NCBI GenBank assembly: GCA_050124835.1
Contig: JASFEM010000004.1
Coordinates: 3,588-67,587, forward strand
Origin: Syntrophobacterales bacterium
GTDB lineage: Bacteria > Desulfobacterota > Syntrophobacteria > BM002
Direction of reading: 5' to 3'
DNA length: 64,000 bases
Made by a program: the position numbers and the translations under genes. The stretch's first letter is position 1, and each line of letters starts with the position of its first letter. Positions 12,779-55,404 of this stretch are shown here, piece by piece. A model generated the notes under the pieces. That model did no database searches. It saw only the letters and a list, made by a program, of their open reading frames with translations, and was not told the origin of the DNA.

Positions 12779-12792
12779 CGAGAATAAAAAAT

Positions 12793-36622: not shown

Positions 36623-36705
36623 TCCCCTGCGACCCTGAACTGCCAGGAGACTTGCTTAAGAAATCGCAAATCATTTCGAAAAACACATTTATTAACCTCA
36701 TCACA

Positions 36706-36840: not shown

Positions 36841-36891
36841 GTCTGCTGTCTGCTTAGAAGTGCTCTATGCTCTCTGCCCCATGCCCTATGC

Positions 36892-37899
36892 TTATTTCGA
36901 CAAGCGGCTAAGGGCACAATGTGCCGCCCCCAACAGGGCCGCCTGCTCGTTGAGAATCACCCGGACAGGTATTTTCTCTAACAATTCACTGAACCTGCCT
37001 TTGTTTGTAAATGCCTGCATAAACATAGATTCCTTCAGTTTAGGCAGGATTTTAGGTGGGATCCCACCACCCAGGTAAACACCTCCCGTCGTCATCGCGA
37101 TTAAGGCCAGGTTACCGGCAACTGCTCCAAATATGGAGACAAACATATTCAATGCCGCCACGCACACGGGATGTTTACCATCCAGTGCGGCTTCGGTAAT
37201 CGCCCTTGCCGGATCCATCTCTTCCATGTTCCTGGCTAACCAGGTAGGTATCCGATGGCGGCCGGTGTCTTTGAGCCATAGATAAATATTTACCAATCCG
37301 GGACCAGACAAGACCCTTTCTACGCTGACGTGCCCAAATCGTTTATGAAGGTAACGCCACAATTTGATTTCCGCTTCGGTGTTTGGAGAAAAATCGATGT
37401 GCCCCCCCTCAGAAGGTACAGGGACGTACTCCCCGTCTCGAAAAATAAGCAATGCCTTCCCCAGACCCGTGCCTGGAGCGACCAACGCAAGGTTTTGCCC
37501 TTTGCGACTTTTTGCCTTGTTCAAGCGAAAGAGCTCTCGACTGTTCAGAAGAGGAATGGCATGCGCCGTGGCTGTCAAGTCATTTATAAGAGAGACATGG
37601 GCCCACTCGAAGCGTTTTTTAATCTTATCTTCGGCGACGTACCACGGCAAATTGGTTGTTTGGCATCGCCCATTTATCACCGGACCCGCAATACCAAAGC
37701 ATGCACTCTGAACCGGCACCTGATGTTTGTCCAAAAATCGTGCGATGATCCACTCCAGATTCGGCGCCTCCCTGCTGGAATAAGTCTCAATTACCTTTGC
37801 AGCAGGACGGGTCCTTCCTTGACGGAAAAAGCCGAGGTTCGTCTTTGTCCCCCCAATATCACCGGCTAAAACAAAAAGATCACTCTCAGGATTTTTCAT
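36892..37899 (-). CDS. glk: glucokinase (Glk family)
   Basis: N-terminal ATP motif LAGDIGGTKTNLGFF, with length and downstream blocks consistent with bacterial Glk. Confidence 0.7.
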   Translation of the reverse strand: MKNPESDLFVLAGDIGGTKTNLGFFRQGRTRPAAKVIETYSSREAPNLEWIIARFLDKHQVPVQSACFGIAGPVINGRCQTTNLPWYVAEDKIKKRFEWAHVSLINDLTATAHAIPLLNSRELFRLNKAKSRKGQNLALVAPGTGLGKALLIFRDGEYVPVPSEGGHIDFSPNTEAEIKLWRYLHKRFGHVSVERVLSGPGLVNIYLWLKDTGRHRIPTWLARNMEEMDPARAITEAALDGKHPVCVAALNMFVSIFGAVAGNLALIAMTTGGVYLGGGIPPKILPKLKESMFMQAFTNKGRFSELLEKIPVRVILNEQAALLGAAHCALSRLSK

Positions 37900-38433: not shown

Positions 38434-38907
38434 CTAAATATTAGCACATTTTTTCACACTAGCGGTTTTTATAAACATTATTGCTAGCTCTTGCTTCTCT
38501 TTTGTTAATCTTTTGATTCGACCACTTAGTTTAATTACATTAGTTCTTACTGGATCAGAAACCTTATCATCCGAGTATAGCTGTAAATCAACCTTTTCAT
38601 CTTGGGCGAAGTTCACCCAATCGTCTAGCTTGACAAGGGCACCGTTGATACTCACATCGACAATGGTGCCCTCAATGGCTTTTTTCGGTTTTTTGTTGGT
38701 GACTACAACCCTGAAAGGCCTGGTTATCCGCTTATACTTTCTTTTTTCATCATCGCATTTTTCGCAATGCTCACAGATTCTTTTTGCGGTTTCGATCTCG
38801 GAGGGTTCAAGTAGCTGGGGAATCAAATAGGCCTTGTCAATGGCTTGATTTTTTGGGCAATGCCCGCTACTGTAATACTGGCACTTTTCCCAGGCTGGCT
38901 CTTTCAT
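38434..38907 (-). CDS. PilZ-domain c-di-GMP receptor with N-terminal Cys-rich (C..C..CxxCxxC) module
   Basis: PilZ motifs RITRPFR (RxxxR) and DVSINGALV (D/NxSxxG). Cysteines at positions 9, 17, 45, 48 and 51. The gene sits in a low-GC islet. Confidence 0.65.
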   Translation of the reverse strand: MKEPAWEKCQYYSSGHCPKNQAIDKAYLIPQLLEPSEIETAKRICEHCEKCDDEKRKYKRITRPFRVVVTNKKPKKAIEGTIVDVSINGALVKLDDWVNFAQDEKVDLQLYSDDKVSDPVRTNVIKLSGRIKRLTKEKQELAIMFIKTASVKKCANI

Positions 38908-43369: not shown

Positions 43370-44281
43370 CTATTCATCCTTGGCTGTCTTAACCGCGTGA
43401 CCGCCAAATTCCCTCCGCAGGGCCGCAAGAACCCTGTCCTCGAAAGCATTCTCTTGCCTGGATCTGAATCTTCTAAAAAGCGACAAGGCTATAACTGGAG
43501 CGGATACGCCACTTTCAACTGCCTGTTGCACAGTCCAGCGCCCTTCCCCCGAGTCTTCCACATATCCGCGAATTTCTGTGAGCCTTTCATCCTTGGCAAA
43601 GGCTGTCTCCAAGAGCTCCAGAAGCCACGAACGTACCACACTTCCCTGATTCCACAGGTGCGCCACTTTGGAGTAATCAAGGGATTCTGCGTAAGGAGAG
43701 CCCTCCAAAATGGCAAACCCTTCCCCGTAGGCCTGCATCATTCCATACTCGATACCGTTATGAACCATTTTGACAAAGTGACCAGCGCCAATGGGACCGC
43801 AATGGAGATAGCCATCCTCGGGTGCCAGTGTCTTGAAAATTGGCTCGAGATATTCATAGATCTGGCGGTCTCCGCCCATCATCATGCAATACCCTACCTG
43901 GAGTCCCCAGATGCCCCCGCTCACACCAACATCCATAAACTTAATTCCGGCCTCAGCCAGCATCTCGGAGCGGCGGATGTCATCTTTATAGTAGGTGTTA
44001 CCTCCATCAATGATGATGTCGTCAACAGACAGCAAGTCTTTAAGCTGCTCGAGGTGATCATCGACGGGCTTGCCAGCAGGAAGCATAAGCCAGACGACTC
44101 GTGGCGGTTCCAACTTCTCAACCAGTTCGGTTAAAGAAAAGCTCCCTATTGCGCCCTCCTTGACAATTTCCTCTGTCTTGTTGGGCGTTCGATTGAAGGC
44201 TACCACCTCATGCCCCCCCTGAAGCAGCCGCTTCGCCATATTCATTCCCATGCGGCCCAAGCCAATCATAGCCAATTTCAT
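43370..44281 (-). CDS. 6-phosphogluconate dehydrogenase (decarboxylating)-like, short YqeC-type
   Basis: N-terminal Rossmann motif MIGLGRMGMNMAKRL, a length of about 300 aa and a Gnd-family C-terminal domain. Confidence 0.7.
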   Translation of the reverse strand: MKLAMIGLGRMGMNMAKRLLQGGHEVVAFNRTPNKTEEIVKEGAIGSFSLTELVEKLEPPRVVWLMLPAGKPVDDHLEQLKDLLSVDDIIIDGGNTYYKDDIRRSEMLAEAGIKFMDVGVSGGIWGLQVGYCMMMGGDRQIYEYLEPIFKTLAPEDGYLHCGPIGAGHFVKMVHNGIEYGMMQAYGEGFAILEGSPYAESLDYSKVAHLWNQGSVVRSWLLELLETAFAKDERLTEIRGYVEDSGEGRWTVQQAVESGVSAPVIALSLFRRFRSRQENAFEDRVLAALRREFGGHAVKTAKDE

Positions 44282-44345
44282 TTCATAACCTCCAAATTGC
44301 CAATTAGAGAATTTCGCAATACGTACATAAATTTAACCTAGCATA

Positions 44346-44552
44346 GGTTGGGCTTGAGGGCTGAGTTATTCCCAAAGCGGCGTATGTTGTAAGCCTATGC
44401 AAGCTTCAATGGTTAGGCCGTGCTGCCTTTAGCTGCAGAGGCTGGCGACATCCGCAGCTCGGGCTGCCATTGCCTCCGGTCCGAAGCACTTCCCCCCGCA
44501 AGTGTAGCAGACCGAGCGTAAGCGGAGGGAATGGCTTAGCGCTCAAGCCTTT
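44346..44552 (+). repeat. copy A (full length) of the approximately 200-bp dispersed element with terminal inverted repeats
   Basis: 5-prime end GGTTGGGCTTGAGGGCTGAGTTATTCCC. 3-prime end GGGAATGGCTTAGCGCTCAAGCC. These are imperfect reverse complements of each other. Confidence 0.7.
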
Positions 44553-44587
44553 GAGCGGAGCTAAGACAAGAGGCATATTTTCGAATT

Positions 44588-46045
44588 CTAGCTCTCTTCG
44601 CCGCAGGCCCTTCCTTTCAGATTGAAAAAGAGTTTTAATCCCTTCTTTACTCTATCGGAGAATATCTTGGGAGAAAAGAATGTCCCTGCGACCCTTTTGT
44701 TGATTTCACCCAGGGTCGGATATGGATGCACCGCCGAGGCAAGCGTGGAGAGTTTCACCTTTCCATTTAACACAGCTACCCATTCACCCAGTAATTCTCC
44801 TGCTTGTGGACCCAATATCTGAACCCCAATTGGCTTTTCTTTTTCATCAAGGATCATTTTGATCTTTCCGACTTTTTCACCCTCTGCCAGACTTCTGTCG
44901 TTATCTTTAAACTCTTCAGTCCACACAGCATACTGGATTCCGGCAGCCTCGGCTGCTTTTTCATTCATACCAATGCTAGCGAGTTCAGGGTCAGTATAGG
45001 TGCACCACGGCAAGAAGGTGTAGTCTACCTTTCTCGGGAGATGAAAAATCGCATTGGTGAACACGACACCGCCCTCGTAACCGGCAGCATGAGTGAACTG
45101 ATACTCACCGGTGACATCTCCTGCTGCATATATGTGCTTTTGTTTTGTTCTCAAGCGCTTGTCTACCTGTATGCCTTTCCCACTAAACTCTATGCCCAAC
45201 TCTTCCAGCCCTAAACCTTCCACGTTGGCTTCTCGACCCATGGCAACCAGGATTTTTTCGCCCCTAAGCTGGATCGTTTTGTTCGCGCCATTCTTAAGAA
45301 CCACCTCTCTCTCGTTCCCCAGGTCCCGAACAGCCACCACAGAGGAGTTGAGATAAAATGTGACCCCCTCAGCTTGCAAAACCTCCTTGACTGCGTCGGC
45401 CATATCTTTGTCTTCTTTGCTCAAGATCTGATTACTCCGCTGAACCACAGAGACCTTCGCACCAAGGCGGCAGAATGCCTGTGCCATCTCTATGGCTATG
45501 GGTCCAGCTCCAAGAATTATCAAGGATTTTGGCAGATGATCGAGGGAAAAGATTTCCTTGTTGGTGATATAAGGGGTTTTATCCAACCCCTCTATTTGAG
45601 GTATGGCAGGAGAGGAACCTGTAGAAAGTACCCAGGCTTTGGCTGAGAAGGTCGCTCCATTCAGACGGATGGTGTGCTCATCGGTAAAGGTTGGATCACC
45701 AAATTCCACCCTGGCGCCGAGCTTGCAGAATCTTTCCACTGAATCGTGCTCTTGAATGGTATTGATAACCGATTGAATTCTATTTGCCACCTCACGATAA
45801 TCAACAGGTGGAAGCTCAACCCCCGGAAGTCCGTATTCTCTTGAGCTTTTCATCAGATGGTAGACGTGAGCTGTTCTGATCAGGGTTTTGCTCGGCACGC
45901 ACCCGTAGTGCAGGCAGTCGCCCCCAAGTTCTTTTTCCTTTTCAACCAGCAGAGTCTTGGCACCAGCTTGGGCAGCTCCAGCCGTCACGGTTAAACCTGC
46001 TGCGCCACCGCCAATTACACCTATGTCAAAATCATAATCAGCCAT
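44588..46045 (-). CDS. class I pyridine nucleotide-disulfide oxidoreductase (dihydrolipoyl dehydrogenase / mercuric reductase-like core)
   Basis: FAD motif GVIGGGAAG. Redox-active disulfide GGDCLHYGCVPSK, a second Rossmann fold and the interface domain. No HMA domain and no C-terminal Cys pair. Confidence 0.7.
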   Translation of the reverse strand: MADYDFDIGVIGGGAAGLTVTAGAAQAGAKTLLVEKEKELGGDCLHYGCVPSKTLIRTAHVYHLMKSSREYGLPGVELPPVDYREVANRIQSVINTIQEHDSVERFCKLGARVEFGDPTFTDEHTIRLNGATFSAKAWVLSTGSSPAIPQIEGLDKTPYITNKEIFSLDHLPKSLIILGAGPIAIEMAQAFCRLGAKVSVVQRSNQILSKEDKDMADAVKEVLQAEGVTFYLNSSVVAVRDLGNEREVVLKNGANKTIQLRGEKILVAMGREANVEGLGLEELGIEFSGKGIQVDKRLRTKQKHIYAAGDVTGEYQFTHAAGYEGGVVFTNAIFHLPRKVDYTFLPWCTYTDPELASIGMNEKAAEAAGIQYAVWTEEFKDNDRSLAEGEKVGKIKMILDEKEKPIGVQILGPQAGELLGEWVAVLNGKVKLSTLASAVHPYPTLGEINKRVAGTFFSPKIFSDRVKKGLKLFFNLKGRACGEES

Positions 46046-46447
46046 AGCCCTCTCCTTGTCTTTTCTCTGTACTTAGTTCCCCTGCGAGCGCCAGCGATAG
46101 GACGCTTAAGCTTATGTGAACAAACTGCACCAAGTTTTGTCGTCTCCCTTTTTTGGATCGGAAGGCAATAAGAAGCTCATGCGGAACTCTACCCTGCTTG
46201 TTATCTAAGCAAACTAAGACATCTAACGGGAATATCAAGAGAGAATTCCTCCAAGAGTTTCCCCAATAGTCGTGATTAGCCCGACTATCTTACCGCTGGA
46301 TTCGGGTTTTTGCATTGGAATATTTGCGGATTTTCTTTGTTACAGTCGGAAACTGCTTGACACCACTAAGAATAATTCAGAAATTGAGAATTAGAGATCA
46401 GTTCTGGAGTATTGAAATAATGTAATTAAGAGACGCAAGAAACTGCC

Positions 46448-48109
46448 GTGAGTTCAATGACTGTAAAAAACTCGGAGAAACTCAAGTGGTGGGGCTGGGG
46501 ACCAGAAGGCCAGAGTTACGCTCTGCCCGATCCGCAGGGTTTCTGGTCATTTCTTGAAAACAGCCTGGGCCCACTTCAAAAGAGCTCGCGGGTTGCTTCC
46601 CCGAATGACATCCATTTGCCGCCTTCTCGTCTGGCCTCCGCGGACCTTGAAGAACTCACAAAGTTACTCGGTGACAACGGGGTGACCACTGGACCATCGG
46701 ACCGGTTAGTTCACGCTCTGGGGAAATCCTACGTTGATCTTCTCCAGATACGTCAAGGGCATGTATCCGCTGCACCAGATGGAGTTATTTTCCCAGAGAA
46801 AGAGGAACATGTTCAGGCTGTATTGGAACTAGCCCACCAAAAGAACTGGGCTATTATCCCCTTCGGCGGGGGGACTTCGGTAGTGGGTGGCGTGGAACCC
46901 ATGCCTGATAGTCAGGTAGTGCTCACGCTTGATCTGGAACGCATGAACCGCGTCCTTGAAATAGATCCCGTCTCCAACACCGCAAGAATCCAGAGTGGTA
47001 TCCGGGGACCAGAACTGGAGGCACAGCTTTATGCTAATGGCTTTACCTTGGGACATTTCCCCCAATCTTTTGAATTCTCGACACTAGGTGGCTGGATTGC
47101 GACGCGCTCGGCAGGGCAGAATTCCACCAAGTATGGGAAGATCGAGCACATGGTGGTCAGCCTGAGGATAATCACACCAACCGGTATTTTGGATTCCCCA
47201 GTGGTACCGGCAGATGCAGTGGGGCCTTCCCTGCTTCAATGTCTGATTGGTTCAGAGGGCACTTTAGGGGTAATCACCCAAGCTGTAGTCCGTCTTCATC
47301 CTATCCCCCAGCACAGGGTTTTCGCTACATACCTTTTTCCGGATTTCGCTGAAGGCGTCTCTGCTGTGCGTCAAATGTTGCAAGCAGATCTGCGGCCAGC
47401 GGTGCTCAGGCTTTCTGACCCTGACGAGACCGCAATGGCTGTGTTGCTTGGTAAATCGCCGCGCTCATCTTTCAAGGAATTCCTAGGCCATTGGTATATC
47501 CGCTTTCGGGGATTTGACCTCCAGCGGTCCGCTCTCCTTATCTTGATTTTCGAGGGAACTCGCAATCTGGTTTCGGCGGCGAGACGCGAAACGCACCGCT
47601 TCTTGCGATCGGGACTTTATCTGGGGGGCCACCCTGCCAGGGAGTGGATGAAATCTCGCTTTCACCATCCGTATCTCCGGGATGACCTGCTGGATCGCTC
47701 GGTAATGGTGGACACTTTGGAGACTGCCGCACCCTGGGAGAGACTGCCAACGCTTTATGCAGCGGTACGCCAGACACTCTCCGAATCGATCCTTAGCACT
47801 GCCCCGGGCGCGTTGGTGTTCAGCCATCTATCCCACGCCTATCCGGATGGTGCCTCCCTGTATTTTACCTTTATGGCCCGGCAGCAAGCCGGACGTGAGT
47901 TGGAGCAATGGCAGTTGATTAAAGAAGCGGCCACCGAAGCGATAATCAAGCATGGCGGTGCCCTTAGCCATCACCATGGTATCGGTAGCATGCACAAACC
48001 CTGGGTTCAGTCTTATCTGGGGCCTGGAGCTCTGGCATTTCTCGAGCAGCTGAAAAGAAAAATAGACCCAGAGAACATCATGAATCCCGGAAAACTATTG
48101 GGAACTTAA
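46448..48109 (+). CDS. FAD-linked oxidase, alkyl-dihydroxyacetonephosphate synthase (AGPS)-like
   Basis: N-terminal KWWGWG tryptophan/glycine motif as in AGPS. PCMH-type FAD-binding region (VIFPEKEEHVQAVLELAHQKNWAIIPFGGGTSVVGG). The C-terminal HHHGIG motif is typical of the FAD-oxidase_C family. Confidence 0.6.
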   Translation: MSSMTVKNSEKLKWWGWGPEGQSYALPDPQGFWSFLENSLGPLQKSSRVASPNDIHLPPSRLASADLEELTKLLGDNGVTTGPSDRLVHALGKSYVDLLQIRQGHVSAAPDGVIFPEKEEHVQAVLELAHQKNWAIIPFGGGTSVVGGVEPMPDSQVVLTLDLERMNRVLEIDPVSNTARIQSGIRGPELEAQLYANGFTLGHFPQSFEFSTLGGWIATRSAGQNSTKYGKIEHMVVSLRIITPTGILDSPVVPADAVGPSLLQCLIGSEGTLGVITQAVVRLHPIPQHRVFATYLFPDFAEGVSAVRQMLQADLRPAVLRLSDPDETAMAVLLGKSPRSSFKEFLGHWYIRFRGFDLQRSALLILIFEGTRNLVSAARRETHRFLRSGLYLGGHPAREWMKSRFHHPYLRDDLLDRSVMVDTLETAAPWERLPTLYAAVRQTLSESILSTAPGALVFSHLSHAYPDGASLYFTFMARQQAGRELEQWQLIKEAATEAIIKHGGALSHHHGIGSMHKPWVQSYLGPGALAFLEQLKRKIDPENIMNPGKLLGT

Positions 48110-49786
48110 ATGTTTCGTCCACAACCCAAATCGTACGGTGGAACCTTCTCTTACAGAACCCGGATCGCCAACCTTAAAAGGATGCAGGAGGAGGAGTTTG
48201 ACCTCGTCGTGATTGGCGGGGGTGTTACAGGTGCTGCTATCGCAAGGGACGCGGCCATGCGCGGCATGAAAGTGGCACTCATTGAAAAGATAGATTTTGC
48301 CAGTGGTACCAGCAGCAAGTCTTCAAGGATGATCCACGGGGGACTGCGCTACCTGAAACAGCTAGATATCGGTCTGGTGAAGGAATCGCTGTCTGAACGG
48401 GAGAAACTTCTTCATCTGGCACCCCACCTGGTTCACCCGGCCCCTTACTTAATCCCCATCTATTCAGGCTGGCTAGGGCGTCTTGAGCTGCACATAGGGA
48501 TGCACGGCTACGATTTATTGGCCCGCGACAGTTCTCTGGGACGCCACCGCAACCTGTCGCCCCAGGAAGTCTTGCACGAAGAACCCCTGCTTCGTGAGGA
48601 AAACCTCTCTGGGGGCTTCATTTATTATGACTGCCTGGTAAACGATTCTCGGCTCACCCTTGCTATTGTGAAATCCGCACACGAAAACGGCGCGGTGGTG
48701 GCCAATTACACCCAGGCTATTGGTTTCGGCCTGGATAAAAAACCCCTTCGCGAGGTGAGATTTCGCGAGATCTTGAAGGGTAAGGAGGGGGTAATTCGCA
48801 CCCGAGTGGTGGTGGTTGCGGCAGGGCACTGGACCGATGAACTCCTTCAACGTCATGACCACCCAGGACCCACCCTCCGCCCCACCAAGGGTGTCCACCT
48901 GGTCTTTCCCAAAAATCGACTTAAGGTGAACAAGATTGTCGTGGTGCCCACTGCGGACAAACGCATGATCTTCGTAGTTCCCCTGGGTGAATACGCCTAT
49001 GTTGGAACGACCGACACCGACTATACAGGCTCACTCGATACTGTGCTTGTGGATGATACTGATGTAACTTACCTTCTAGACGCGATAAATCAATGTTTTC
49101 CATCGCTGAATTTGCGCCCCACCGACATCGTCTCTTCCTGGGCCGGACTCCGGCCCCTCACTAAAGAGGAAGGTGCCCCCTCTAAGGTGAGCCGCGACTA
49201 TCACGTTGACTTATACGACGATGGGCTTGCACTCATCACCGGGGGCAAACTGACCACCCATCGCACCATGGCCAAAAGTCTCGTTGACCAGGTACTGAAG
49301 CGCTACGACGACCTCCTAGAGGGTGACTTCAGCCCGTGCAGTACGGCAGAGACTCCCCTCGTGGGCGGGGAGATGGCCGATTTTCCCTCTTATCTCAAAG
49401 CGCAATCCCTAGGTCTAAAGGACCGGTGGGGTCTCTCTCAAATCAATGTGGAGCATCTGATTCATAGCTACGGCCGAAATCATATGGATATTCTTGCCCT
49501 GGGACTCAGAAATCGAAAGCTGCTGGAACCATTGGGTCCGGGCTGCCGGGTGATTAGAGCACAGGTAATCTATGCCGTTGAAGACGAAATGGCCCTCACC
49601 CTAGAGGATTTTATGAGCAGGAGAACAAGCCTCATCTATTTCAATGGTCAGCAAGATCTTGCTTCGACCGCAGCCAAACTCATGGGCAGAGTGCTGGGTT
49701 GGAACCGCACCCGCCGGTTAGCTGAAATTCGCAAATACCGAGAAACAGTTCAACAGATGTTCAACTTCAGATCAGCGTTAGCATAA
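48110..49786 (+). CDS. FAD-dependent glycerol-3-phosphate dehydrogenase (GlpA/GlpD family)
   Basis: DLVVIGGGVTGAAIARDAAMRGMKVALIEKIDFASGTSSKSSRMIHGGLRYL is the GlpD signature N-terminus. The start codon abuts the stop of the upstream gene. Confidence 0.8.
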   Translation: MFRPQPKSYGGTFSYRTRIANLKRMQEEEFDLVVIGGGVTGAAIARDAAMRGMKVALIEKIDFASGTSSKSSRMIHGGLRYLKQLDIGLVKESLSEREKLLHLAPHLVHPAPYLIPIYSGWLGRLELHIGMHGYDLLARDSSLGRHRNLSPQEVLHEEPLLREENLSGGFIYYDCLVNDSRLTLAIVKSAHENGAVVANYTQAIGFGLDKKPLREVRFREILKGKEGVIRTRVVVVAAGHWTDELLQRHDHPGPTLRPTKGVHLVFPKNRLKVNKIVVVPTADKRMIFVVPLGEYAYVGTTDTDYTGSLDTVLVDDTDVTYLLDAINQCFPSLNLRPTDIVSSWAGLRPLTKEEGAPSKVSRDYHVDLYDDGLALITGGKLTTHRTMAKSLVDQVLKRYDDLLEGDFSPCSTAETPLVGGEMADFPSYLKAQSLGLKDRWGLSQINVEHLIHSYGRNHMDILALGLRNRKLLEPLGPGCRVIRAQVIYAVEDEMALTLEDFMSRRTSLIYFNGQQDLASTAAKLMGRVLGWNRTRRLAEIRKYRETVQQMFNFRSALA

Positions 49787-49982
49787 CTTGTATCACAAAA
49801 ATATCTATGTCTTTTATCTCTCACAGAGATCACAACCGGCTTATAATCCATTGTTTACCAATAACTAGGCAGTAGGCACATAAAACTTGCCTCTTAGAGC
49901 TAGTCTGTTACTCTAGAGCTTTCGGCATTTGCGCCTGACAATTTCTTTCAAACAGTAAACAAATAGTTGTTTGTATTTTTTT

Positions 49983-50014
49983 GTGCTTAGTGCTTAGTGT
50001 TTAGTGGTTAGTTA
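49983..50014. repeat. heptamer tandem array (GCTTAGT/TTAGTGN)x4
   Basis: The sequence reads GTGCTTA GTGCTTA GTGTTTA GTGGTTA GTTA. Confidence 0.75.
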
Positions 50015-50099
50015 TCGAGCGACCCGGAGATCGCCGAAGCAAAGAGTGGGCGAGAGGATAGATAATAATAACAGAACATAGGTCTTGTGATCTGGTGGT

Positions 50100-51074
50100 A
50101 TGAATAGTCGACAGAGATTCTTAGAAACGATGCGTTATGGCAAGCCCGACCGGGTGCCCTACTTCGAGGAGGGCATACGGAAAGATGTCCTCAAAGCATG
50201 GCGGCGCCAGGGCTTACCGGCTCAGGCTGATCTTGCTCAAATGTTTCCTTCCGACAGGCGTGAGGTGATAGAGGCAGACTTGGATCCCCGTCCCAAGCTT
50301 AAGAAGTGGCCCACCTCACGGTCCGAAATCAACACACTGCGGAAACACCTCGATCCATACACTCGAGGCCGTTTGCCCTGGGGCTGGTCCAAGCGGGTTC
50401 GCGGTTGGCAGAATCGTGAGCATGTACTGATGCTGCGGGTTCACCGTGGCTTTTTCCTTTCCATGGGTGTGTATGACTGGCGCAGATTCGACGAGTTGAT
50501 GGACCTGCTCATAGATGATCCTGAATTTGTGCGTGAAGCCATGGCCGTCCAGGGTGAATTCGCCGCTGGTCTCACGGAACGGGTGCTGCGGGACGTTGAA
50601 ATCGATGCGGCTTTGTTCAGTGAACCCATCGGAGGAAATGACCAACCCTTGATCGGGCCCCAGATGTATGAAGAGCTCGTGCTGACCAGCTATGAGCCGG
50701 TTCTGGCGGTATTGAAGAAATATGGGGTGGAAAACATAGTCTTTGTGACTTACGCCAATGCCCGAATATTGCTGCCGAGCATTCTAAAGTGGGGGTTTAA
50801 CTGCCTCTGGGCCTGCGAGGTGAATATAGAGGCAATGGACTATCGCGATCTGCGCCGGGAGTTCGGTGGTGATCTCCGGTTGATCGGGGGTATAGATCTG
50901 GACGCACTTCGGCGTGATAAGGATGCAATCAAACGTGAAGTCGAGCAGAAAGTACCCCCCCTCCTTGCCGACGGTGGCTACGTGCCTCTGGCAGATGGCA
51001 GGGTTCGGGCGGATGTGCCTTATGAAAATTACGTCTACTATCGGCAGTTATTGGAGCAGGTGACAAGGGCGTAA
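50100..51074 (+). CDS. uroporphyrinogen decarboxylase (URO-D) family protein
   Basis: The N-terminus RFLETMRYGKPDRVPYF and overall length match the URO-D/MtaA-like superfamily. The specific substrate is not inferable. Confidence 0.55.
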   Translation: MNSRQRFLETMRYGKPDRVPYFEEGIRKDVLKAWRRQGLPAQADLAQMFPSDRREVIEADLDPRPKLKKWPTSRSEINTLRKHLDPYTRGRLPWGWSKRVRGWQNREHVLMLRVHRGFFLSMGVYDWRRFDELMDLLIDDPEFVREAMAVQGEFAAGLTERVLRDVEIDAALFSEPIGGNDQPLIGPQMYEELVLTSYEPVLAVLKKYGVENIVFVTYANARILLPSILKWGFNCLWACEVNIEAMDYRDLRREFGGDLRLIGGIDLDALRRDKDAIKREVEQKVPPLLADGGYVPLADGRVRADVPYENYVYYRQLLEQVTRA

Positions 51075-51263
51075 TCCCGGTCGCAGCGAGAGGATCACCA
51101 GGCACTGGGGGGCAACGCGGTGAAACGGCGAGACGGAGACGCGGCGAAAATGCCAGCAAATTGAGAGGGATTCAGTTTTGATGGCTTTTCCCCTGACTAC
51201 TGGATTCTGACTCCTGGCTCCTTCCGCTATGAAACTCTACCGACTGAATAAGACTGATTAAGA

Positions 51264-52085
51264 ATGTGGACACCTATGAACACCACAGATGGTTTATTGA
51301 CAGAGGAATATTATATTAAAGCGGCCGGACATCGGCTTCGTGTGCGAAAGCTTTTGCACCCCAACAGTGATAAAAAGAATGCAGGCCCAACTTTGGTGTT
51401 TCTCCACGAGGCATTGGGTTCTATTGAACAGTGGCGAGACTTTCCCTCTATCCTGGTGGAGGCAACAGGCTTCGATGCATTGTTATATGACCGCTGGGGC
51501 CATGGAAAATCTGATCCGCTCGATGCAAAAAGAACGCTCCGCTATGTCCATGATGAAGCCTTGGACAGTCTGCCTGAAGTTCTGAAAAAATCCAACGTCC
51601 ATGATGCGATCCTCATCGGTCACAGCGATGGTGGCTCCATTGCCCTGATATTCGCGGCAGATTATCCACAGCTAGCCCGCGGTGTCGTTTCTGAGGCCGC
51701 ACATGTTTTTGTGGAAGAGATTACCTTGGAAGGAATTAAAGACGTCGTCAACAAATACGAAACGACGAACTTGGTTGAAAGGCTGTCACGTTATCACGGT
51801 GATAATACAGAAAAGATTTTTAGAGCTTGGCATGAGACCTGGCTCTCTGCTGAATTCAAACGTTGGAATATTGAGAATTGTCTTCCCCGAATCAAGTGTC
51901 CAGTATTGGTAATACAAGGTGAAGACGACCAATATGGCACTGAAGCTCAGGTTGAAGCCATCGCATCACAGGTATCCGGACCGTCCAAGTCTTTGCTAAT
52001 TCCAAATTGTTCTCACATACCTCACAAACAAGCCAAAGACATAGTTGTTCAAGAAATGACAGATTTCATTCTCAAGATCCTTTAG
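51264..52085 (+). CDS. alpha/beta-fold hydrolase
   Basis: Nucleophile elbow GHSDGG, with the acid in GEDDQYG and the His in SHIP. Confidence 0.7.
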   Translation: MWTPMNTTDGLLTEEYYIKAAGHRLRVRKLLHPNSDKKNAGPTLVFLHEALGSIEQWRDFPSILVEATGFDALLYDRWGHGKSDPLDAKRTLRYVHDEALDSLPEVLKKSNVHDAILIGHSDGGSIALIFAADYPQLARGVVSEAAHVFVEEITLEGIKDVVNKYETTNLVERLSRYHGDNTEKIFRAWHETWLSAEFKRWNIENCLPRIKCPVLVIQGEDDQYGTEAQVEAIASQVSGPSKSLLIPNCSHIPHKQAKDIVVQEMTDFILKIL

Positions 52086-53250: not shown

Positions 53251-55404
53251 TTGCACCGAAGTTGGAGACGCTCGATGAGCATCCGGTGGAAATTTTTGAT
53301 TATTCTCCTGGTTTTCAGTCTTACGCCTTTACTCTTGGTCACTGCCGTGAGTCAGAAGGTCACAATCAACCTGGGTGAGACCATCTCCAATTTGGCGAAG
53401 CGTACCCGCACCGAAATCGTCAGTAAAGAGCTGCAGCAGACCGCCAGAGACCATGCCAAGATACTGGGTCGCGAAAAGGAAATCTTGGAGCTTACCCTGA
53501 GGATTATAGCCAGAGATGCCAAACGTGTTTTGTCCGAGAAACCAAAAGCCACTCCCAGAGTCTATTTCGCCGATGACTATGACAATTCTCGTAGGGCCCC
53601 CGGTGATCTGAGCCGCTCGCCACAACATCTTAGGGAAGCGTCAGGTGGTGGCACCGAACCCATGCCCGTAAGCATGGGGCATCAGGTCTTCTGGCTTCCC
53701 TCCAACCTCGATAGAAGGGTCGTGGCAAAAGACATTGCCAGACTGGCACAGTTGCTTCCTCTGCACCAAGAATTCGAACGTCGGTATGGAGACATTCTCT
53801 ATTGGCAATACGTTAGCCTCAATAGCGGTGTTCACGCCGCTTTCCCTGGTCATGGGGGTTATTCGCCGGACTATACCCCACAGAGGCGACCGTGGTTCAT
53901 TCTCGCCAAGGAAAGAAAAGAGTTGGCTTGGTCCACCCCTTACATCGACGCCACTTCCCACCAGGTTATTATGACCGCTTCAATACCCGTTCATCACCCA
54001 GACGGCACCTTTGCCGGAGTTGCCGCCATTGACGTGCTCGTTTCTAAAATTTTGCAAGTCCATGAGCTCTCTTCCCAGTGGTCGCCGGCCATGCGCTCTT
54101 TTCTCGTCTGGTCGGGCATAAACAGCAAAACCGGCGAATCCGGCCTTTGGGTTCTCGCCCAGAAAGATTACGTTGAGCATGCAGCTGCTTGGACCGGCGT
54201 TACCCAGCTGGAGCGGTTGGCCTCTTCAGACGCTCAAAAGATGAGTCGACTCTCTAGTGGGATTGAAACCAGGACATCTGGCTATCTGGACATGCCGTAT
54301 TATGGGGTGGACTCCATCTGGGCATACGCTCACGCGGTCGAGGATGTAAGTCTAGTACTCATCGTTCCACACAAGATAATCCTGGAACAGGTTAAACAAA
54401 TTCGAGAAGCCGTGCTGTCCTTGGCCAAAAGACACTGGCTGATTACGGGGATAACCGCCACCGCTGTAATTCTCTTTCTGATCCTAGCGGCTTTTTGGTT
54501 TTCCCGAGCAATGATCAGGCCTATGTTCGTCATGGTTGAGGCGGTCAGAAAACTTGCTGTGGGCGACTTTTCCGCACGGATGCATATAGCCACCGGAGAT
54601 GAGCGAGACCTGGTAGCCGATACCTTCAACGAAATGGTCCCTAAGCTCGAAGATAGAATGCATATCCGCAAAGCCCTCGAAGTCGCCCAGGAGGTGCAAC
54701 AGAACCTCCTGCCCGAAGAAATTCCCAAAGTGCCAGGCTTTGACATCTCGGCGAAAAGTGTTTATTGCGACGAAACGGGCGGAGATTACTTTGACTTCTT
54801 CCCTAGTGGAGATGAGGACTCTGCTCGCACCGGCGTTTTGGTGGGTGACGTAACCGGCCACGGTATTGGGGCGGCTTTACTCATGGCTACAGCCCGAGCG
54901 CTCATAAGAGGTCTTGCCAGCAAGCAACAAAATCTAGCCGAGTGTGTCAGCCAGGTCAACAGGCTCCTAACTGCTGACGTCCGTCAGAGTGGCAATTTCA
55001 TGACCCTGTTTTTTCTCGAGCTTGAGGTGGGATCACGCCTTGTCAGGTGGGTTAGGGCAGGACACGACCCTGCTATCTTATACGATCCAGCAACCGAGTC
55101 CTTCGAAGAGCTCAAGGGATCCGGTCTGGTCTTGGGAGTTGACGAAGACTATTCATACCAACAGATCGAAAAGACCATCGAGACCGCCGGAACCATCATA
55201 CTCGTCGGCACGGACGGCATCTGGGAGGCTCATAACGGAGATGGAGAGATGTTCGGTAAAGCCCGCCTTTATGAAATAATCCGGATAAATGCTCGCAAGA
55301 CCGCTGAGGAAATTCAAGACGCGGTGTTGGAAGCACTCAGCGATTTTCGTGGGGATGTCGCCCAGGAAGATGATGTTACCATTGTGGTGATCAAGGTACT
55401 TTAG
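53251..55404 (+). CDS. membrane sensor with extracytoplasmic Cache-like domain, HAMP and PP2C/SpoIIE-type Ser/Thr phosphatase domain
   Basis: Two TM segments bracket a region of about 330 aa. HAMP-like AVRKLAVGDFSARM. The C-terminal PP2C motifs GGDYFDFF and GDVTGHGIGAAL...GTDGIWEA. Confidence 0.7.
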   Translation: MHRSWRRSMSIRWKFLIILLVFSLTPLLLVTAVSQKVTINLGETISNLAKRTRTEIVSKELQQTARDHAKILGREKEILELTLRIIARDAKRVLSEKPKATPRVYFADDYDNSRRAPGDLSRSPQHLREASGGGTEPMPVSMGHQVFWLPSNLDRRVVAKDIARLAQLLPLHQEFERRYGDILYWQYVSLNSGVHAAFPGHGGYSPDYTPQRRPWFILAKERKELAWSTPYIDATSHQVIMTASIPVHHPDGTFAGVAAIDVLVSKILQVHELSSQWSPAMRSFLVWSGINSKTGESGLWVLAQKDYVEHAAAWTGVTQLERLASSDAQKMSRLSSGIETRTSGYLDMPYYGVDSIWAYAHAVEDVSLVLIVPHKIILEQVKQIREAVLSLAKRHWLITGITATAVILFLILAAFWFSRAMIRPMFVMVEAVRKLAVGDFSARMHIATGDERDLVADTFNEMVPKLEDRMHIRKALEVAQEVQQNLLPEEIPKVPGFDISAKSVYCDETGGDYFDFFPSGDEDSARTGVLVGDVTGHGIGAALLMATARALIRGLASKQQNLAECVSQVNRLLTADVRQSGNFMTLFFLELEVGSRLVRWVRAGHDPAILYDPATESFEELKGSGLVLGVDEDYSYQQIEKTIETAGTIILVGTDGIWEAHNGDGEMFGKARLYEIIRINARKTAEEIQDAVLEALSDFRGDVAQEDDVTIVVIKVL

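What the first reader, a model, noticed from the sequence alone, without database searches (positions are those of the whole stretch)
46448..49786. AGPS-like FAD oxidase translationally coupled to FAD-dependent glycerol-3-phosphate dehydrogenase: candidate ether-lipid or DHAP module
The first ORF has the WWGWG N-terminal motif and PCMH FAD domain of alkyl-dihydroxyacetonephosphate synthase. Its stop codon abuts the ATG of a GlpA/GlpD-type dehydrogenase that makes DHAP from G3P. A DHAP-producing enzyme joined to an alkyl-DHAP-forming enzyme would be a compact ether-lipid entry route. Alkyl glycerol ether lipids are known in sulfate reducers and myxobacteria, but an operon like this is not a described pathway. 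FabH, an alpha/beta hydrolase and an acyltransferase-phosphoesterase fusion lie within 10 kb downstream.
Basis: inference. Interest (0 to 1): 0.55.

Follow-up and report, generated by a model that had tools for sequence, protein, structure and literature searches.

The report
Coupled ether-lipid synthase and glycerol-phosphate dehydrogenase
Two abutting genes encode a bacterial relative of the enzyme that makes the ether bond of ether lipids and an ordinary glycerol-3-phosphate dehydrogenase; this pair is widespread, is often fused into one protein, was already noted in Pseudomonas aeruginosa, and has never been tested biochemically.

Summary
ORF 46448-48109 is an AGPS-family flavoprotein. It scores 396 bits against Dictyostelium AGPS and 118 bits against D-lactate dehydrogenase, and all catalytic residues are present. 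Its TAA stop abuts, in frame, the ATG of a canonical GlpD-type dehydrogenase (48110-49786).

The pairing is not chance. Among 72 informative metagenomic AGPS loci, 46 have GlpD directly downstream and one has GlpABC. At least 28 protein clusters are natural AGPS-GlpD fusions, falling in at least 4 clades. One fusion is predicted to be compact (pTM 0.89). A YegS/DagK lipid kinase is a frequent third gene.

A second AGPS clade instead carries acyltransferase and SDR neighbours, the classical pathway. FabH, the hydrolase and the acyltransferase-phosphoesterase are syntenic only in close relatives, so they are not part of the module.

The claim that the operon is undescribed is only partly right. 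P. aeruginosa PA3026-PA3023 was published in 2021 with the same in-silico pathway, and the mycobacterial Rv2249c-Rv2252 cluster appears to be the same module.

Function is untested. GlpD-fed alkyl-DHAP synthesis is my best guess (0.4). Ether-lipid breakdown and oxidation of a lipid-bound backbone remain open. An ether-cleaving PEG-carboxylate dehydrogenase probably belongs to the same protein family.

The parts
46046..46447 (.). 402-nt AT-rich divergent intergenic region between the pyridine-nucleotide-disulphide oxidoreductase gene (- strand) and the AGPS-like gene; presumed promoter region
   Evidence: GC is 0.42 here against 0.50 for the window. One weak sigma-70-like site lies at 46392-46421, no better than the shuffled control. 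No Rfam match. The role is inferred only.
46448..48109 (+). AGPS-family (alkyl-dihydroxyacetonephosphate synthase-like) FAD enzyme, 553 aa (alternative ATG start at 46457)
   Evidence: Pfam FAD_binding_4 + FAD-oxidase_C. Scores 396 bits against Dictyostelium AGPS 2uuu, 293 bits against guinea-pig AGPS and 118 bits against D-LDH. GlcD equivalog TIGR00387 scores 162 bits against a cut-off of 568. H203, T212, R321, R411, Y472 and H508-510 correspond to guinea-pig H300, T309, R419, R515, Y578 and H615-617. It shares 71 of the 77 columns that are invariant in eukaryotic plus clade-A AGPS.
48107..48112 (+). TAA-ATG junction: the stop of the AGPS-like gene abuts the start of glpD, in the same reading frame
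   Evidence: Relatives have junctions of -20 to +2 nt. In natural fusions the spacing between the two enzymes (about 40 aa) equals that of the window with the stop codon removed.
48110..49786 (+). GlpD/GlpO-type FAD-dependent glycerol-3-phosphate dehydrogenase, 558 aa
   Evidence: Pfam DAO + DAO_C. Scores 320 bits against B. halodurans GlpD 3da1, 310 bits against Streptococcus GlpO and 223 bits against E. coli GlpD. NCBIfam PRK12266 scores 344 bits against a cut-off of 360. The E. coli-numbered residues H50, R54, H233, T270, R317, R332 and K354 are all kept.

Best explanation
The two genes form a dedicated, physically coupled pair of flavoenzymes acting on the glycerol-phosphate backbone of lipids. 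GlpD, a quinone-linked membrane-surface dehydrogenase, oxidises sn-glycerol-3-phosphate to the 2-keto form (DHAP). An AGPS-type enzyme can only work on a DHAP backbone. [quoted passage not shown]

Shown here: the family membership of both proteins, conservation of the catalytic residues, coupling of the two genes across phyla, and repeated fusion into one compact polypeptide.

Inferred: that GlpD's substrate is free G3P; that an unlinked acyltransferase makes acyl-DHAP; that a fatty alcohol is available; that the flow runs towards ether synthesis; and that a reductase then gives 1-alkyl-G3P.
For: AGPS identity:
- 396 bits against solved AGPS and 118 bits against D-LDH.
- The AF2 model of a natural fusion superposes on AGPS with TM 0.85-0.88.
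- H300, R515, Y578 and H615-617 are invariant in 94 of 94 sequences and R419 in 89 of 94.
- Six AGPS-invariant positions, including R198 and R515, are kept in the GlpD-linked clade but lost in probable PEG-carboxylate dehydrogenases. I read these two arginines as possible phosphate binders; that is inference, not tested.

GlpD identity:
- All substrate and catalytic residues are kept in 20 of 20 AGPS-linked GlpDs. Only one peripheral column separates them from five canonical GlpD/GlpO sequences.
- In locus L073, GlpABC lies between AGPS and GlpD, which shows AGPS linked to more than one kind of G3P dehydrogenase.

Coupling:
- 47 of 72 informative loci have GlpD or GlpABC directly downstream.
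- In L013 the pair sits alone in an unrelated context.
- At least 28 fusion clusters fall in at least 4 clades.
- The modelled fusion has pTM 0.89 and pLDDT 90.

Lipid context of the family:
- Fusions or neighbours include PlsC-type acyltransferase, SDR, FAR, acyl-CoA synthetase and DagK.
- M. xanthus AGPS is experimentally implicated in ether-lipid synthesis (10.1101/2025.10.10.681575; PMC13159169).
- Kotecka et al. proposed the same route for PA3026-PA3024 (PMC8151288).
Against: - No DHAP acyltransferase, fatty acyl-CoA reductase or alkyl-DHAP reductase is in the window. None recurs beside the module in 134 neighbouring ORFs.
- Under this model the two fused enzymes are not consecutive steps. 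The other AGPS fusions, with an acyltransferase or an SDR, would join enzymes of adjacent steps of the classical pathway.
- Acyltransferase linkage (clade A) and GlpD linkage (clade B) are complementary. This hints that GlpD replaces the acyltransferase rather than feeding it.
- DHAP is a central metabolite and should not need a dedicated supply.
- The same module occurs in P. aeruginosa and mycobacteria, which to my knowledge are not reported to make ether lipids. The PA3026-24 deletion had no phenotype (PMC8151288).
- Ether lipids of sulfate reducers are currently attributed to Ger, a modified PlsA (PMC13159169).
- The clade differs from classical AGPS at the otherwise invariant D303, which is Q here.
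Confidence: 0.4

Rival explanations
1. Catabolic module: oxygen-independent breakdown of 1-O-alkyl glycerolipids. A YegS/DagK-type kinase phosphorylates alkylglycerol. The GlpD-type enzyme oxidises 1-alkyl-G3P to alkyl-DHAP. The AGPS-type enzyme runs its second half-reaction backwards, with water or a fatty acid as acceptor, releasing fatty alcohol plus DHAP or acyl-DHAP.
For: - The three recurrent genes (kinase, dehydrogenase, AGPS-like) would be consecutive and self-sufficient, matching the lack of any other recurrent neighbour.
- A quinone-linked dehydrogenase suits the oxidative direction. The biosynthetic-looking clade A carries an SDR instead.
- Regulation is of the inducible kind. In P. 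aeruginosa an AraC-type activator also induces a phospholipase C (PMC8151288). In actinobacteria a TetR-family gene lies in the cluster.
- The module occurs in species that, to my knowledge, are not reported to make ether lipids.
- The fusion in L107 sits between thiolase-FadB-FadE-thioesterase-SDR-aldehyde dehydrogenase and a patatin lipase. Patatin genes also lie in L073 and L090.
- The same protein family probably contains a known ether-cleaving enzyme, PEG-carboxylate dehydrogenase (PMC7299911).
Against: - The GlpD partners show no active-site change that would accommodate an sn-1 alkyl chain.
- Reverse ether cleavage by an AGPS has not been demonstrated, to my knowledge.
- The window itself has no kinase, lipase or beta-oxidation genes nearby.
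- The L107 context is a single case. Other fusion contexts are neutral, and L110 has an acyltransferase + SDR 2.4 kb away, which looks anabolic.
Confidence: 0.2
2. Anabolic module in which the GlpD-type enzyme works on the lipid-bound backbone. It oxidises 1-acyl-G3P (lysophosphatidate) to acyl-DHAP, so no DHAP acyltransferase is needed. It may then return the electrons to alkyl-DHAP, giving 1-alkyl-G3P. The net reaction is redox-neutral: LPA + fatty alcohol gives alkyl-G3P + fatty acid. A close variant has the AGPS-like enzyme condense free DHAP directly with a fatty alcohol.
For: - It makes the two fused enzymes consecutive steps and explains the fixed 1:1 coupling and compact fusion.
- It explains why GlpD linkage and acyltransferase/SDR linkage are mutually exclusive between clades.
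- It explains why no acyltransferase or reductase recurs next to the module.
Against: - There is no sequence signature of altered GlpD specificity.
- GlpABC appears in the same operon as GlpD in L073.
- I know of no precedent for a GlpD acting on lysolipids or for reduction of a DHAP derivative by a GlpD-type flavin.
- A fatty-alcohol source is still missing.
Confidence: 0.15
3. The AGPS-like protein is not a lipid enzyme here. It is a flavoprotein dehydrogenase acting on a small phosphorylated glycerol or glycerone derivative, by analogy with PEG-carboxylate dehydrogenase. The pair would then simply be part of a glycerol/G3P catabolic operon.
For: - The family is functionally mixed. The window protein is 32-35% identical to probable PCDHs, against 33% to guinea-pig and 39% to Dictyostelium AGPS.
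- The Tyr/HHH/Arg419 triad is also kept in the PCDH-like proteins, so it does not prove AGPS chemistry.
- Deep branching is unresolved.
- D303 is Q, as in the PCDH-like proteins.
- In some bacteria the module's GlpD and FGGY kinase are reported to be the only such genes (PMC8151288).
Against: - The recurrent partner is a lipid kinase (DAGK_cat/YegS), found in 20 of the 80 loci.
- Fusions exist with acyltransferase, SDR and DagK.
- The window shares 71 of 77 AGPS-invariant columns, against 45 for the PCDH-like proteins.
- No GST or glycolate-oxidase neighbours occur, unlike the PCDH loci.
Confidence: 0.1
4. ORF1 is a D-lactate, glycolate or 2-hydroxyacid dehydrogenase (GlcD-like), and the adjacency to glpD has no functional meaning.
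For: It shares the PCMH fold and the FAD_binding_4/FAD-oxidase_C domains with GlcD and D-LDH. NCBI's own name for the homologues is only 'FAD-binding oxidoreductase'.
Against: - 118 bits against D-LDH versus 396 bits against AGPS.
- GlcD equivalog at 162 bits against a cut-off of 568.
- A long branch separates a genuine GlcD from the whole AGPS-like family.
- Adjacency holds in 47 of 72 loci, and at least 28 fusion clusters exist.
Confidence: 0.02

Closest known systems
P. aeruginosa PA3026-PA3025-PA3024 operon with PA3023 (GliR/PA3027 regulon; Kotecka et al. 2021, PMC8151288)
   Same: An FAD-binding oxidoreductase assigned to the acyl-to-alkyl-glycerone-phosphate step is followed directly by a GlpD homologue. 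The authors proposed the same in-silico pathway, from glycerol/G3P to DHAP to alkyl-DHAP. A YegS-type lipid kinase belongs to the cluster, as it does in 20 of the related metagenomic loci.
   Different: The window has only the two-gene core. It has no FGGY kinase, no YegS kinase and no AraC regulator. The host is an uncultured anaerobic 'Deltaproteobacteria'/Syntrophobacteria-type MAG. I took the PA3026 assignment from the paper and did not verify it by sequence. No biochemical function is known for either system.
Actinobacterial glpD1 / TetR / flavoprotein / Rv2252 lipid-kinase cluster (M. tuberculosis Rv2249c-Rv2252; Streptomyces and Tsukamurella plasmid copies)
   Same: An AGPS-like protein, 41% identical to the window protein with all catalytic residues kept, is clustered with a GlpD and a YegS/Rv2252-family lipid kinase. 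The genes are co-regulated in BCG (PMC4564863).
   Different: GlpD is transcribed divergently, behind a TetR gene, and is not translationally coupled. The actinobacterial GlpD forms a separate branch. That Rv2251 itself is AGPS-like rests on my memory plus the identical layout in Tsukamurella and Streptomyces.
Eukaryotic and myxobacterial AGPS (EC 2.5.1.26; Dictyostelium 2UUU, guinea pig 4BBY, M. xanthus MXAN_1676)
   Same: Same fold, FAD domains and N-terminal extension. The catalytic Tyr, HHH loop, Arg419 and Arg515 are kept. Identity is 39% to the Dictyostelium enzyme.
   Different: The classical enzymes work with a DHAP acyltransferase (GNPAT, or the FAR-GNPAT fusion MXAN_1675), a FAR and a reductase. 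The corresponding bacterial clade A has acyltransferase, SDR, HMG-CoA-reductase-like or FAR neighbours. The window's clade has GlpD with or without DagK instead, and Q in place of the otherwise invariant D303.
PEG-carboxylate dehydrogenase (PCDH) of Sphingopyxis (Somyoonsap 2008, cited in PMC7299911) and its homologue in the Xanthobacter dioxanivorans dioxane cluster
   Same: Same AGPS-like family: 32-35% identical to the window protein, with a similar N-terminal W-x-W-G motif and the Tyr/HHH/Arg419 residues kept. It also acts on an ether bond next to an activated carbon.
   Different: It cleaves ethers oxidatively on non-phosphorylated PEG-carboxylates. It lies next to a glutathione S-transferase and glycolate oxidase genes. 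It lacks R198, R515, D516 and three glycines that all AGPS clades keep. The identification of these plasmid genes as PCDH is my inference from gene context.
Ger / PlsA-PlsR (anaerobic ester-to-ether reductase; Sahonero-Canavesi 2022, PMC13159169)
   Same: It is the currently accepted route to alkyl glycerol ethers in sulfate reducers and other anaerobes, so it would yield the same kind of product in the same kind of organism.
   Different: It is an unrelated enzyme with different chemistry: reduction of an existing sn-1 ester, with no DHAP intermediate and no fatty alcohol. No Ger-like gene was seen in the window.

Membership tests
AGPS (alkyl-DHAP synthase, EC 2.5.1.26) | PCMH-type FAD-binding domain plus FAD-oxidase C-terminal (cap) domain with an N-terminal extension | tested here: met
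   PF01565 (E 4.6e-38) and PF02913 (E 3e-43). The 100-residue N-terminal extension carries KWWGWG. The fusion homologue's model superposes on 2uuu and 4bby with TM 0.85-0.88.
AGPS (alkyl-DHAP synthase, EC 2.5.1.26) | Closer to characterised AGPS than to D-LDH, GlcD or D2HGDH | tested here: met
   396 and 293 bits against AGPS, versus 118 bits or less against D-LDH and glycolate oxidase. With a genuine GlcD as outgroup, the whole AGPS-like family sits on a long separate branch.
AGPS (alkyl-DHAP synthase, EC 2.5.1.26) | Catalytic residues (guinea-pig numbering): Tyr578, His615-617 loop, Arg419; also H300, T309 and R515 | tested here: met
   The window has Y472, H508-510, R321, H203, T212 and R411. 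Caveat: the Tyr/HHH/Arg419 residues are also kept in probable PCDHs, so they are necessary but not sufficient.
AGPS (alkyl-DHAP synthase, EC 2.5.1.26) | Positions invariant in eukaryotic plus clade-A AGPS that distinguish them from PCDH-like relatives | tested here: inconclusive
   The window shares 71 of 77 invariant columns. R198, G299, G327, G497, R515 and D516 are kept. D303 is Q in the whole GlpD-linked clade, as in the PCDH-like proteins.
AGPS (alkyl-DHAP synthase, EC 2.5.1.26) | Works with a DHAP acyltransferase, a fatty acyl-CoA reductase and an acyl/alkyl-DHAP reductase (linked genes in M. xanthus and in clade A) | tested here: not met
   None of these is in the window, and none recurs next to clade-B modules. 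The PlsB/GPAT-like acyltransferase-phosphoesterase at 56881-59259 gives weak hits (PF01553 30.9 bits; GPAT_C 23 bits, below its cut-off). It is syntenic only in the 96%-identical genome L001.
AGPS (alkyl-DHAP synthase, EC 2.5.1.26) | Catalyses acyl-DHAP + fatty alcohol to alkyl-DHAP + fatty acid; the organism contains alkyl glycerol ethers | not testable with these tools
   Requires an enzyme assay and lipid analysis. The organism is an uncultured MAG.
GlpD/GlpO FAD-dependent glycerol-3-phosphate dehydrogenase | DAO domain plus DAO_C domain, with full-length similarity to solved GlpD/GlpO | tested here: met
   PF01266 (E 2e-57) and PF16901 (E 4e-27). 320, 310 and 223 bits against 3da1, 2rgh and 2qcu.
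GlpD/GlpO FAD-dependent glycerol-3-phosphate dehydrogenase | Substrate and catalytic residues (E. coli H50, R54, H233, T270, R317, R332, K354; the list is recalled from the E. coli GlpD structure paper) | tested here: met
   All are conserved in the window protein and in 20 of 20 AGPS-linked GlpDs.
GlpD/GlpO FAD-dependent glycerol-3-phosphate dehydrogenase | Reaches a curated equivalog cut-off | tested here: inconclusive
   NCBIfam PRK12266 scores 344.4 against a cut-off of 360, and PRK13369 scores 324.5 against 352, both just below. GlpO type 1 scores 392 against 840.
GlpD/GlpO FAD-dependent glycerol-3-phosphate dehydrogenase | Linked to the glycerol-uptake and kinase genes glpF/glpK (catabolic glp regulon) | tested here: not met
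   No glpK or glpF was identified in the window. The longer ORFs were scanned against Pfam.
PA3026-PA3023 / Rv2249c-Rv2252 type 'AGPS-like + GlpD + lipid kinase' cluster | AGPS-like gene clustered with a GlpD gene | tested here: met
   The genes abut in the window. The same pairing occurs in 47 of 72 informative related loci.
PA3026-PA3023 / Rv2249c-Rv2252 type 'AGPS-like + GlpD + lipid kinase' cluster | YegS/DagK-family lipid kinase (and, in Pseudomonas, an FGGY kinase) in the cluster | tested here: not met
   tblastn with a DagK from L012 finds nothing in the window. A DagK is present in 20 of the 80 related loci.
PA3026-PA3023 / Rv2249c-Rv2252 type 'AGPS-like + GlpD + lipid kinase' cluster | Dedicated AraC- or TetR-type regulator adjacent | tested here: not met
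   The divergent upstream gene is a pyridine-nucleotide-disulphide oxidoreductase, and no regulator is adjacent.
GlcD / D-lactate dehydrogenase | Reaches the GlcD equivalog score; partnered with GlcE/GlcF | tested here: not met
   TIGR00387 scores 162 against a cut-off of 568, and PRK11230 scores 100 against 897. No GlcE or GlcF neighbours.
PEG-carboxylate dehydrogenase-like ether-cleaving flavoproteins | Adjacent glutathione S-transferase; hydrophobic residues in place of the AGPS arginines R198 and R515 | tested here: not met
   No GST neighbour. R102 and R411 are retained.

The most novel reading that the evidence does not exclude
The GlpD-AGPS unit, with the YegS/DagK kinase where present, is a self-contained, oxygen-independent machine that exchanges the sn-1 substituent directly on glycerol-phosphate lipids, without a DHAP acyltransferase. 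In one version it breaks down 1-O-alkylglycerols: kinase, then dehydrogenase, then flavin-N5-mediated release of fatty alcohol and DHAP. This would be the first alkyl-ether cleavage route besides the O2- and tetrahydrobiopterin-dependent alkylglycerol monooxygenase. In the other version it converts lysophosphatidate or G3P plus a fatty alcohol into alkyl-G3P by a 'borrowed hydrogen' cycle between the two flavins.
Probability: 0.3. Interest if true: 0.85.

Novelty: new member of a known kind. Interest (0 to 1): 0.5.

Why it matters
The AGPS-like + GlpD module, with or without a lipid kinase, is widespread in metagenomes. It occurs in Thermodesulfobacteriota/'delta' MAGs, Dehalococcoidia, Anaerolineales, KSB1, Riflebacteria and Actinomycetota. 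By published report and by matching gene layout it also occurs in P. aeruginosa and mycobacteria. Not one member has a measured activity.

If it makes alkyl-DHAP, it is a second route to bacterial alkyl glycerol ethers, independent of Ger. These lipids are used as sediment biomarkers, so their source organisms would need re-examination.

If it cleaves alkyl ethers, it would be the first anaerobic ether-lipid degradation pathway. It would also give a function to an inducible lipid operon in two major pathogens.

The natural single-chain fusions, predicted to be compact, are ready-made constructs for the decisive assays.

Tried and rejected
1. Downstream genes as part of the module (URO-D/MtaA-like, alpha/beta hydrolase, FabH, SpoIIE phosphatase, acyltransferase-phosphoesterase): rejected. 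They are syntenic only in MAGs whose AGPS is 71-96% identical. They are absent at 61% identity (L013) and beyond.
2. GlcD/D-LDH identity: rejected.
3. Sequencing error splitting a single fused gene: rejected. Relatives have overlapping or offset junctions in different frames.
4. Horizontal-transfer signal: none. The pair has GC 0.536, like its neighbours.
5. Promoter/terminator scan around the pair: no more sites than in shuffled sequence. Rfam scan of 44000-52000: no match.
6. Specificity-determining positions in AGPS-linked GlpDs: only one peripheral column (V460A) was found. This gives no support for a changed substrate, but it cannot exclude one.
7. Monophyly of the GlpD-linked AGPS clade: seen in a first NJ tree. 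It was not supported once PCDH-like proteins and a GlcD outgroup were added, with low bootstraps. I therefore treat it as a grade. All trees are simple NJ only.
8. Pfam census of 134 neighbouring ORFs, to look for recurrent FAR, acyltransferase, SDR or beta-oxidation genes: only DAGK_cat/YegS_C recurs. Local tblastn with the L107 and L110 neighbours found patatin in three loci and nothing else recurrent.
9. The supplementary table of PMC13159169, which lists genomes with agps homologues, is not held.
10. The first bootstrap script timed out and was re-run with a faster distance routine.
As a result, genome-wide co-occurrence with Ger, FAR or a second GlpD could not be examined.
12. PA3026 and Rv2251 were not verified by sequence. 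The collections at hand do not hold those genomes.

Full report
**1. Observation**

The window holds two abutting + strand ORFs. The first runs 46448-48109 (553 aa, GTG start; the ATG at 46457 matches the homologues' N-termini better). The second runs 48110-49786 (558 aa). The TAA at 48107-48109 is followed directly by ATG, and both ORFs are in the same frame.

ORF1 has the FAD_binding_4 and FAD-oxidase_C domains. ORF2 has DAO and DAO_C. The KWWGWG motif is at residues 13-18.

**2. Organism**

The closest genome is an uncultured 'Deltaproteobacteria' MAG (CP070735.1), with 96% protein identity and the same gene order. Other close homologues are labelled Syntrophobacteria or Syntrophobacterales.

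The rest of the window looks like an anaerobe's housekeeping set. It includes 2-oxoacid:ferredoxin oxidoreductase, an oligopeptide ABC transporter, a zinc ABC transporter and many HD-GYP, GAF and PAS signalling proteins. There are no further lipid genes. The pair's GC content matches its neighbours.

**3. What ORF1 is**

- Against solved structures, ORF1 scores 396 bits to Dictyostelium AGPS and 293 bits to guinea-pig AGPS. The best non-AGPS hit, D-lactate dehydrogenase, scores 118 bits.
- It fails the GlcD equivalog models by a wide margin, 162 bits against a cut-off of 568.
- In the phmmer alignment, and in a 94-sequence alignment, the guinea-pig residues H300, R515, Y578 and H615-617 are invariant. 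R419 is kept in 89 of 94. The window has H203, R411, Y472, H508-510 and R321.
- With a genuine GlcD as outgroup, the whole AGPS-like family sits on a long separate branch.

ORF1 is AGPS-like.

**4. A caveat found on the way**

The AGPS-like family is not functionally uniform. Plasmid searches found relatives 32-35% identical to the window protein in two places. One is the PEG-degradation region of Sphingopyxis macrogoltabida (AraC, AMP-binding protein, MFS, X, GST). The other is a dioxane-degrader cluster of Xanthobacter dioxanivorans (aldehyde dehydrogenases, X, GST, GlcDEF).

From this context they are very probably PEG-carboxylate dehydrogenase, a known ether-cleaving flavoprotein (Somyoonsap 2008, as cited in PMC7299911). 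They keep the Tyr, HHH and Arg419 residues, so that triad alone does not prove AGPS chemistry.

For comparison, the window protein is 39% identical to Dictyostelium AGPS and 33% to guinea-pig AGPS. What separates AGPS proper from the PCDH-like proteins is six positions: R198, G299, G327, G497, R515 and D516. These are invariant in eukaryotic AGPS and in both bacterial AGPS groups, but changed in the PCDH-like proteins. I read the two arginines as possible phosphate binders; that is inference.

The window protein shares 71 of the 77 columns invariant in classical AGPS. The PCDH-like proteins share 45 and GlcD 38. One classical invariant, D303, is Q in the entire GlpD-linked group.

**5. What ORF2 is**

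ORF2 is a full-length GlpD/GlpO-type enzyme. It scores 320 bits to B. halodurans GlpD, 310 bits to Streptococcus GlpO and 223 bits to E. coli GlpD. It falls just under two NCBIfam GlpD cut-offs.

The residues I recall as forming the E. coli G3P site are H50, R54, H233, T270, R317, R332 and K354. All are conserved in the window protein and in 20 of 20 other AGPS-linked GlpDs. Only one peripheral column distinguishes these from five canonical GlpD/GlpO sequences. By sequence it is an ordinary G3P dehydrogenase.

**6. Is the pairing meaningful?**

Yes, strongly.

- *Close relatives.* In all 'delta' MAG relatives with enough downstream DNA, glpD follows with a junction of -20 to +2 nt, in varying frames.
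- *Wider sample.* A metagenome scan with an AGPS alignment gave 80 loci at 40-72% identity. Of these, 46 have GlpD and 1 has GlpABC directly downstream on the same strand, 25 have neither and 8 are too short.
- *Independent movement.* In L013/L014 (61% identity) the pair sits alone in an unrelated neighbourhood.
- *Other phyla.* The pair also occurs in Anaerolineales and Dehalococcoidia genomes.
- *Fusions.* Two loci (L053, L080) encode in-frame AGPS-GlpD fusions. A database search with one of them found at least 28 clusters of 1050-1146-aa fusions carrying all four Pfam domains, from Thermodesulfobacteriota, KSB1, Riflebacteria and Pseudomonadota.
- *Repeated origin.* The fusions fall in at least four clades interleaved with unfused genes. 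Their inter-enzyme spacing, about 40 residues, equals that of the window with the stop codon removed.
- *Structure.* AlphaFold2 on fusion P0124, with a 70-row alignment, gives mean pLDDT 90 and pTM 0.89 over 1104 residues. That implies one fixed arrangement rather than two tethered domains. The halves match AGPS and GlpD/GlpO structures. I could not inspect PAE or coordinates.
- *Co-inheritance.* The non-actinobacterial AGPS-linked GlpDs cluster together, with a topology that parallels the AGPS tree.

**7. The wider module and its alternative**

The only other recurrent neighbour is a DAGK_cat/YegS_C lipid kinase. It appears in 20 of the 80 loci, usually as the third gene and sometimes directly after AGPS with no GlpD. 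A Pfam census of 134 neighbouring ORFs found nothing else recurrent.

A second group of bacterial AGPS genes (clade A) never has GlpD. Instead:
- A PlsC-type acyltransferase lies directly upstream in 10 loci.
- An SDR lies downstream and an HMG-CoA-reductase-like gene upstream in seven loci.
- A FAR, an acyl-CoA synthetase or a desaturase appears in others.

This resembles the classical pathway: DHAP acyltransferase, AGPS, alkyl-DHAP reductase and a source of alcohol. It also resembles the M. xanthus MXAN_1676 operon (10.1101/2025.10.10.681575). AGPS fusions with an acyltransferase, an SDR and a DagK also exist. Acyltransferase/SDR linkage and GlpD/DagK linkage are thus complementary.

They do not belong to the module. 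The window itself has no DagK, FAR, clade-A-type acyltransferase or SDR.

**8. Prior art**

Bacterial agps is known from M. xanthus, and 'distant homologues' have been noted elsewhere. Ether lipids of sulfate reducers are attributed to Ger (PMC13159169; 10.64898/2026.06.23.733905).

Kotecka et al. 2021 (PMC8151288) described the P. aeruginosa cluster:
- PA3026 is an FAD-binding oxidoreductase, PA3025 a GlpD homologue and PA3024 an FGGY kinase. These three form an operon, with the YegS lipid kinase PA3023 alongside.
- The operon genes are induced more than 100-fold (PA3023 about 47-fold) by the AraC-type regulator GliR, together with a phospholipase C.
- From database mining, the authors proposed conversion of glycerol to alkylglycerone phosphate.
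- Deleting the operon gave no phenotype.

I did not check PA3026 by sequence.

In BCG, Rv2249c (glpD1), Rv2250c (regulator), Rv2251 (flavoprotein) and Rv2252 (DAG kinase) are co-regulated (PMC4564863). The identical layout, with a protein 41% identical to the window AGPS, occurs in Streptomyces and Tsukamurella.

The gene cluster and the same hypothesis are in print. The biochemistry is not.

**9. Mechanism**

What is shown: two flavoenzymes, one AGPS-type and one GlpD-type, are inherited, translated and often fused together.

An AGPS-type enzyme needs a 2-keto (DHAP) backbone, and GlpD makes exactly that from a G3P backbone. The canonical GlpD active site favours it. So does the GlpABC set found next to AGPS in L073.

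Against it:
- The fused enzymes would not be consecutive steps.
- No acyltransferase, FAR or reductase accompanies the module.
- GlpD linkage and acyltransferase linkage are mutually exclusive.
- DHAP is never scarce.
- The module occurs in P. aeruginosa and mycobacteria, which to my knowledge are not reported to make ether lipids.

Two rivals make the fused enzymes consecutive. In the catabolic route (0.2), a kinase makes alkyl-G3P, GlpD makes alkyl-DHAP, and AGPS-type cleavage gives fatty alcohol plus DHAP. This route needs no extra enzymes. It also fits the inducible regulators, the phospholipase C in the GliR regulon, the beta-oxidation/aldehyde-dehydrogenase/patatin context of the L107 fusion, and the ether-cleaving relative PCDH. 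In the lipid-backbone anabolic route (0.15), GlpD oxidises lysophosphatidate and may re-reduce alkyl-DHAP. Neither rival has sequence support from the GlpD active site.

A non-lipid role (0.1) is made unlikely by the lipid-kinase partner and by the acyltransferase, SDR and DagK fusions.

**10. Verdict**

This is a real, non-chance and well-conserved module.

It is a new member of a gene-cluster type already noted in P. aeruginosa and present in mycobacteria. It is not a new kind, and its claimed neighbours do not belong to it.

Its interest lies in three things: no member has been characterised, it is widespread and repeatedly fused, and the direction of the reaction (ether synthesis or ether cleavage) is open and directly testable with the natural fusions.

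Noticed in passing
L045, L059, L066-L069, L078 (for example L067:6048-10791): A second, GlpD-free AGPS operon type: HMG-CoA-reductase-family protein (346 bits to PF00368), PlsC-type acyltransferase, AGPS, then a short-chain dehydrogenase. The HMGR-like enzyme could be the acyl-thioester-to-alcohol reductase of a complete bacterial ether-lipid operon.
   Followed up: partly
L097:5971-8326 (Xanthobacter dioxanivorans plasmid) and L098:6968-9316 (Sphingopyxis macrogoltabida plasmid): AGPS-like flavoproteins lie next to a glutathione S-transferase inside 1,4-dioxane and PEG degradation clusters. They are probably PEG-carboxylate dehydrogenase, which would place a known ether-cleaving enzyme in the AGPS family. 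They keep the Tyr/HHH/Arg419 residues but lack R198 and R515.
   Followed up: partly
L107:1-13379: An AGPS-GlpD fusion (1146 aa) lies in one same-strand run after thiolase, FadB, FadE, a 4HBT thioesterase, an SDR and an aldehyde dehydrogenase. It is followed by an NAD-epimerase/NAD_binding_4 protein and a patatin lipase. The setting looks catabolic.
   Followed up: partly
Proteins P0166, P0167, P0180, P0211, P0237, P0222: Other AGPS fusions exist: with a PF01553 acyltransferase (801-851 aa), with an SDR (952 aa), with DAGK_cat/YegS_C (679 aa) and with CCG/Fer4 domains (888 aa).
   Followed up: no
L073:4414-12174: AGPS is followed by GlpA, GlpB and GlpC (the anaerobic G3P dehydrogenase) and then a GlpD. 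Two different G3P dehydrogenases therefore sit in one gene run.
   Followed up: partly
window 56881-59259 (+): A 792-aa fusion of an N-terminal acyltransferase with a C-terminal calcineurin-like metallophosphoesterase. The acyltransferase part hits PF01553 and, weakly, GPAT_C, the PlsB/GNPAT-type C-terminal region. No close solved relative exists. Function is unknown, and a DHAP acyltransferase role cannot be excluded.
   Followed up: partly
window 50100-51074 (+): A URO-D/MtaA-like protein (weak Pfam and NCBIfam hits only) is conserved immediately downstream of glpD in all closely related 'delta' MAGs. It is followed by an alpha/beta hydrolase and FabH. Its role is unknown.
   Followed up: no
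window 12215-16596 (+): A 2-oxoacid:ferredoxin oxidoreductase cluster (gamma, alpha and beta subunits) has a 589-aa GltD/SudA-like Fer4_20 + Pyr_redox_2 + ferredoxin protein inserted between gamma and alpha.
   Followed up: no
window 10071-11225, 20771-22069, 22886-25051: Three HD-GYP-type (HD_5) signalling proteins carry receiver, GAF or HAMP-GAF inputs. There is also a PilZ protein at 38434-38907 and a Cache-HAMP-SpoIIE phosphatase at 53251-55404, giving a dense signalling content.
   Followed up: no
window 33947-37899 (-): An 891-aa GH63/mannosylglycerate-hydrolase-like glycosidase lies next to a glucokinase. This may relate to compatible-solute or glucosylglycerate turnover.
   Followed up: no
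L106:7293-7988, L109:7191-7907, L080:2624-3310: A Lactamase_B/ODP-type metallo-hydrolase is conserved directly upstream of one clade of AGPS-GlpD fusions.
   Followed up: no
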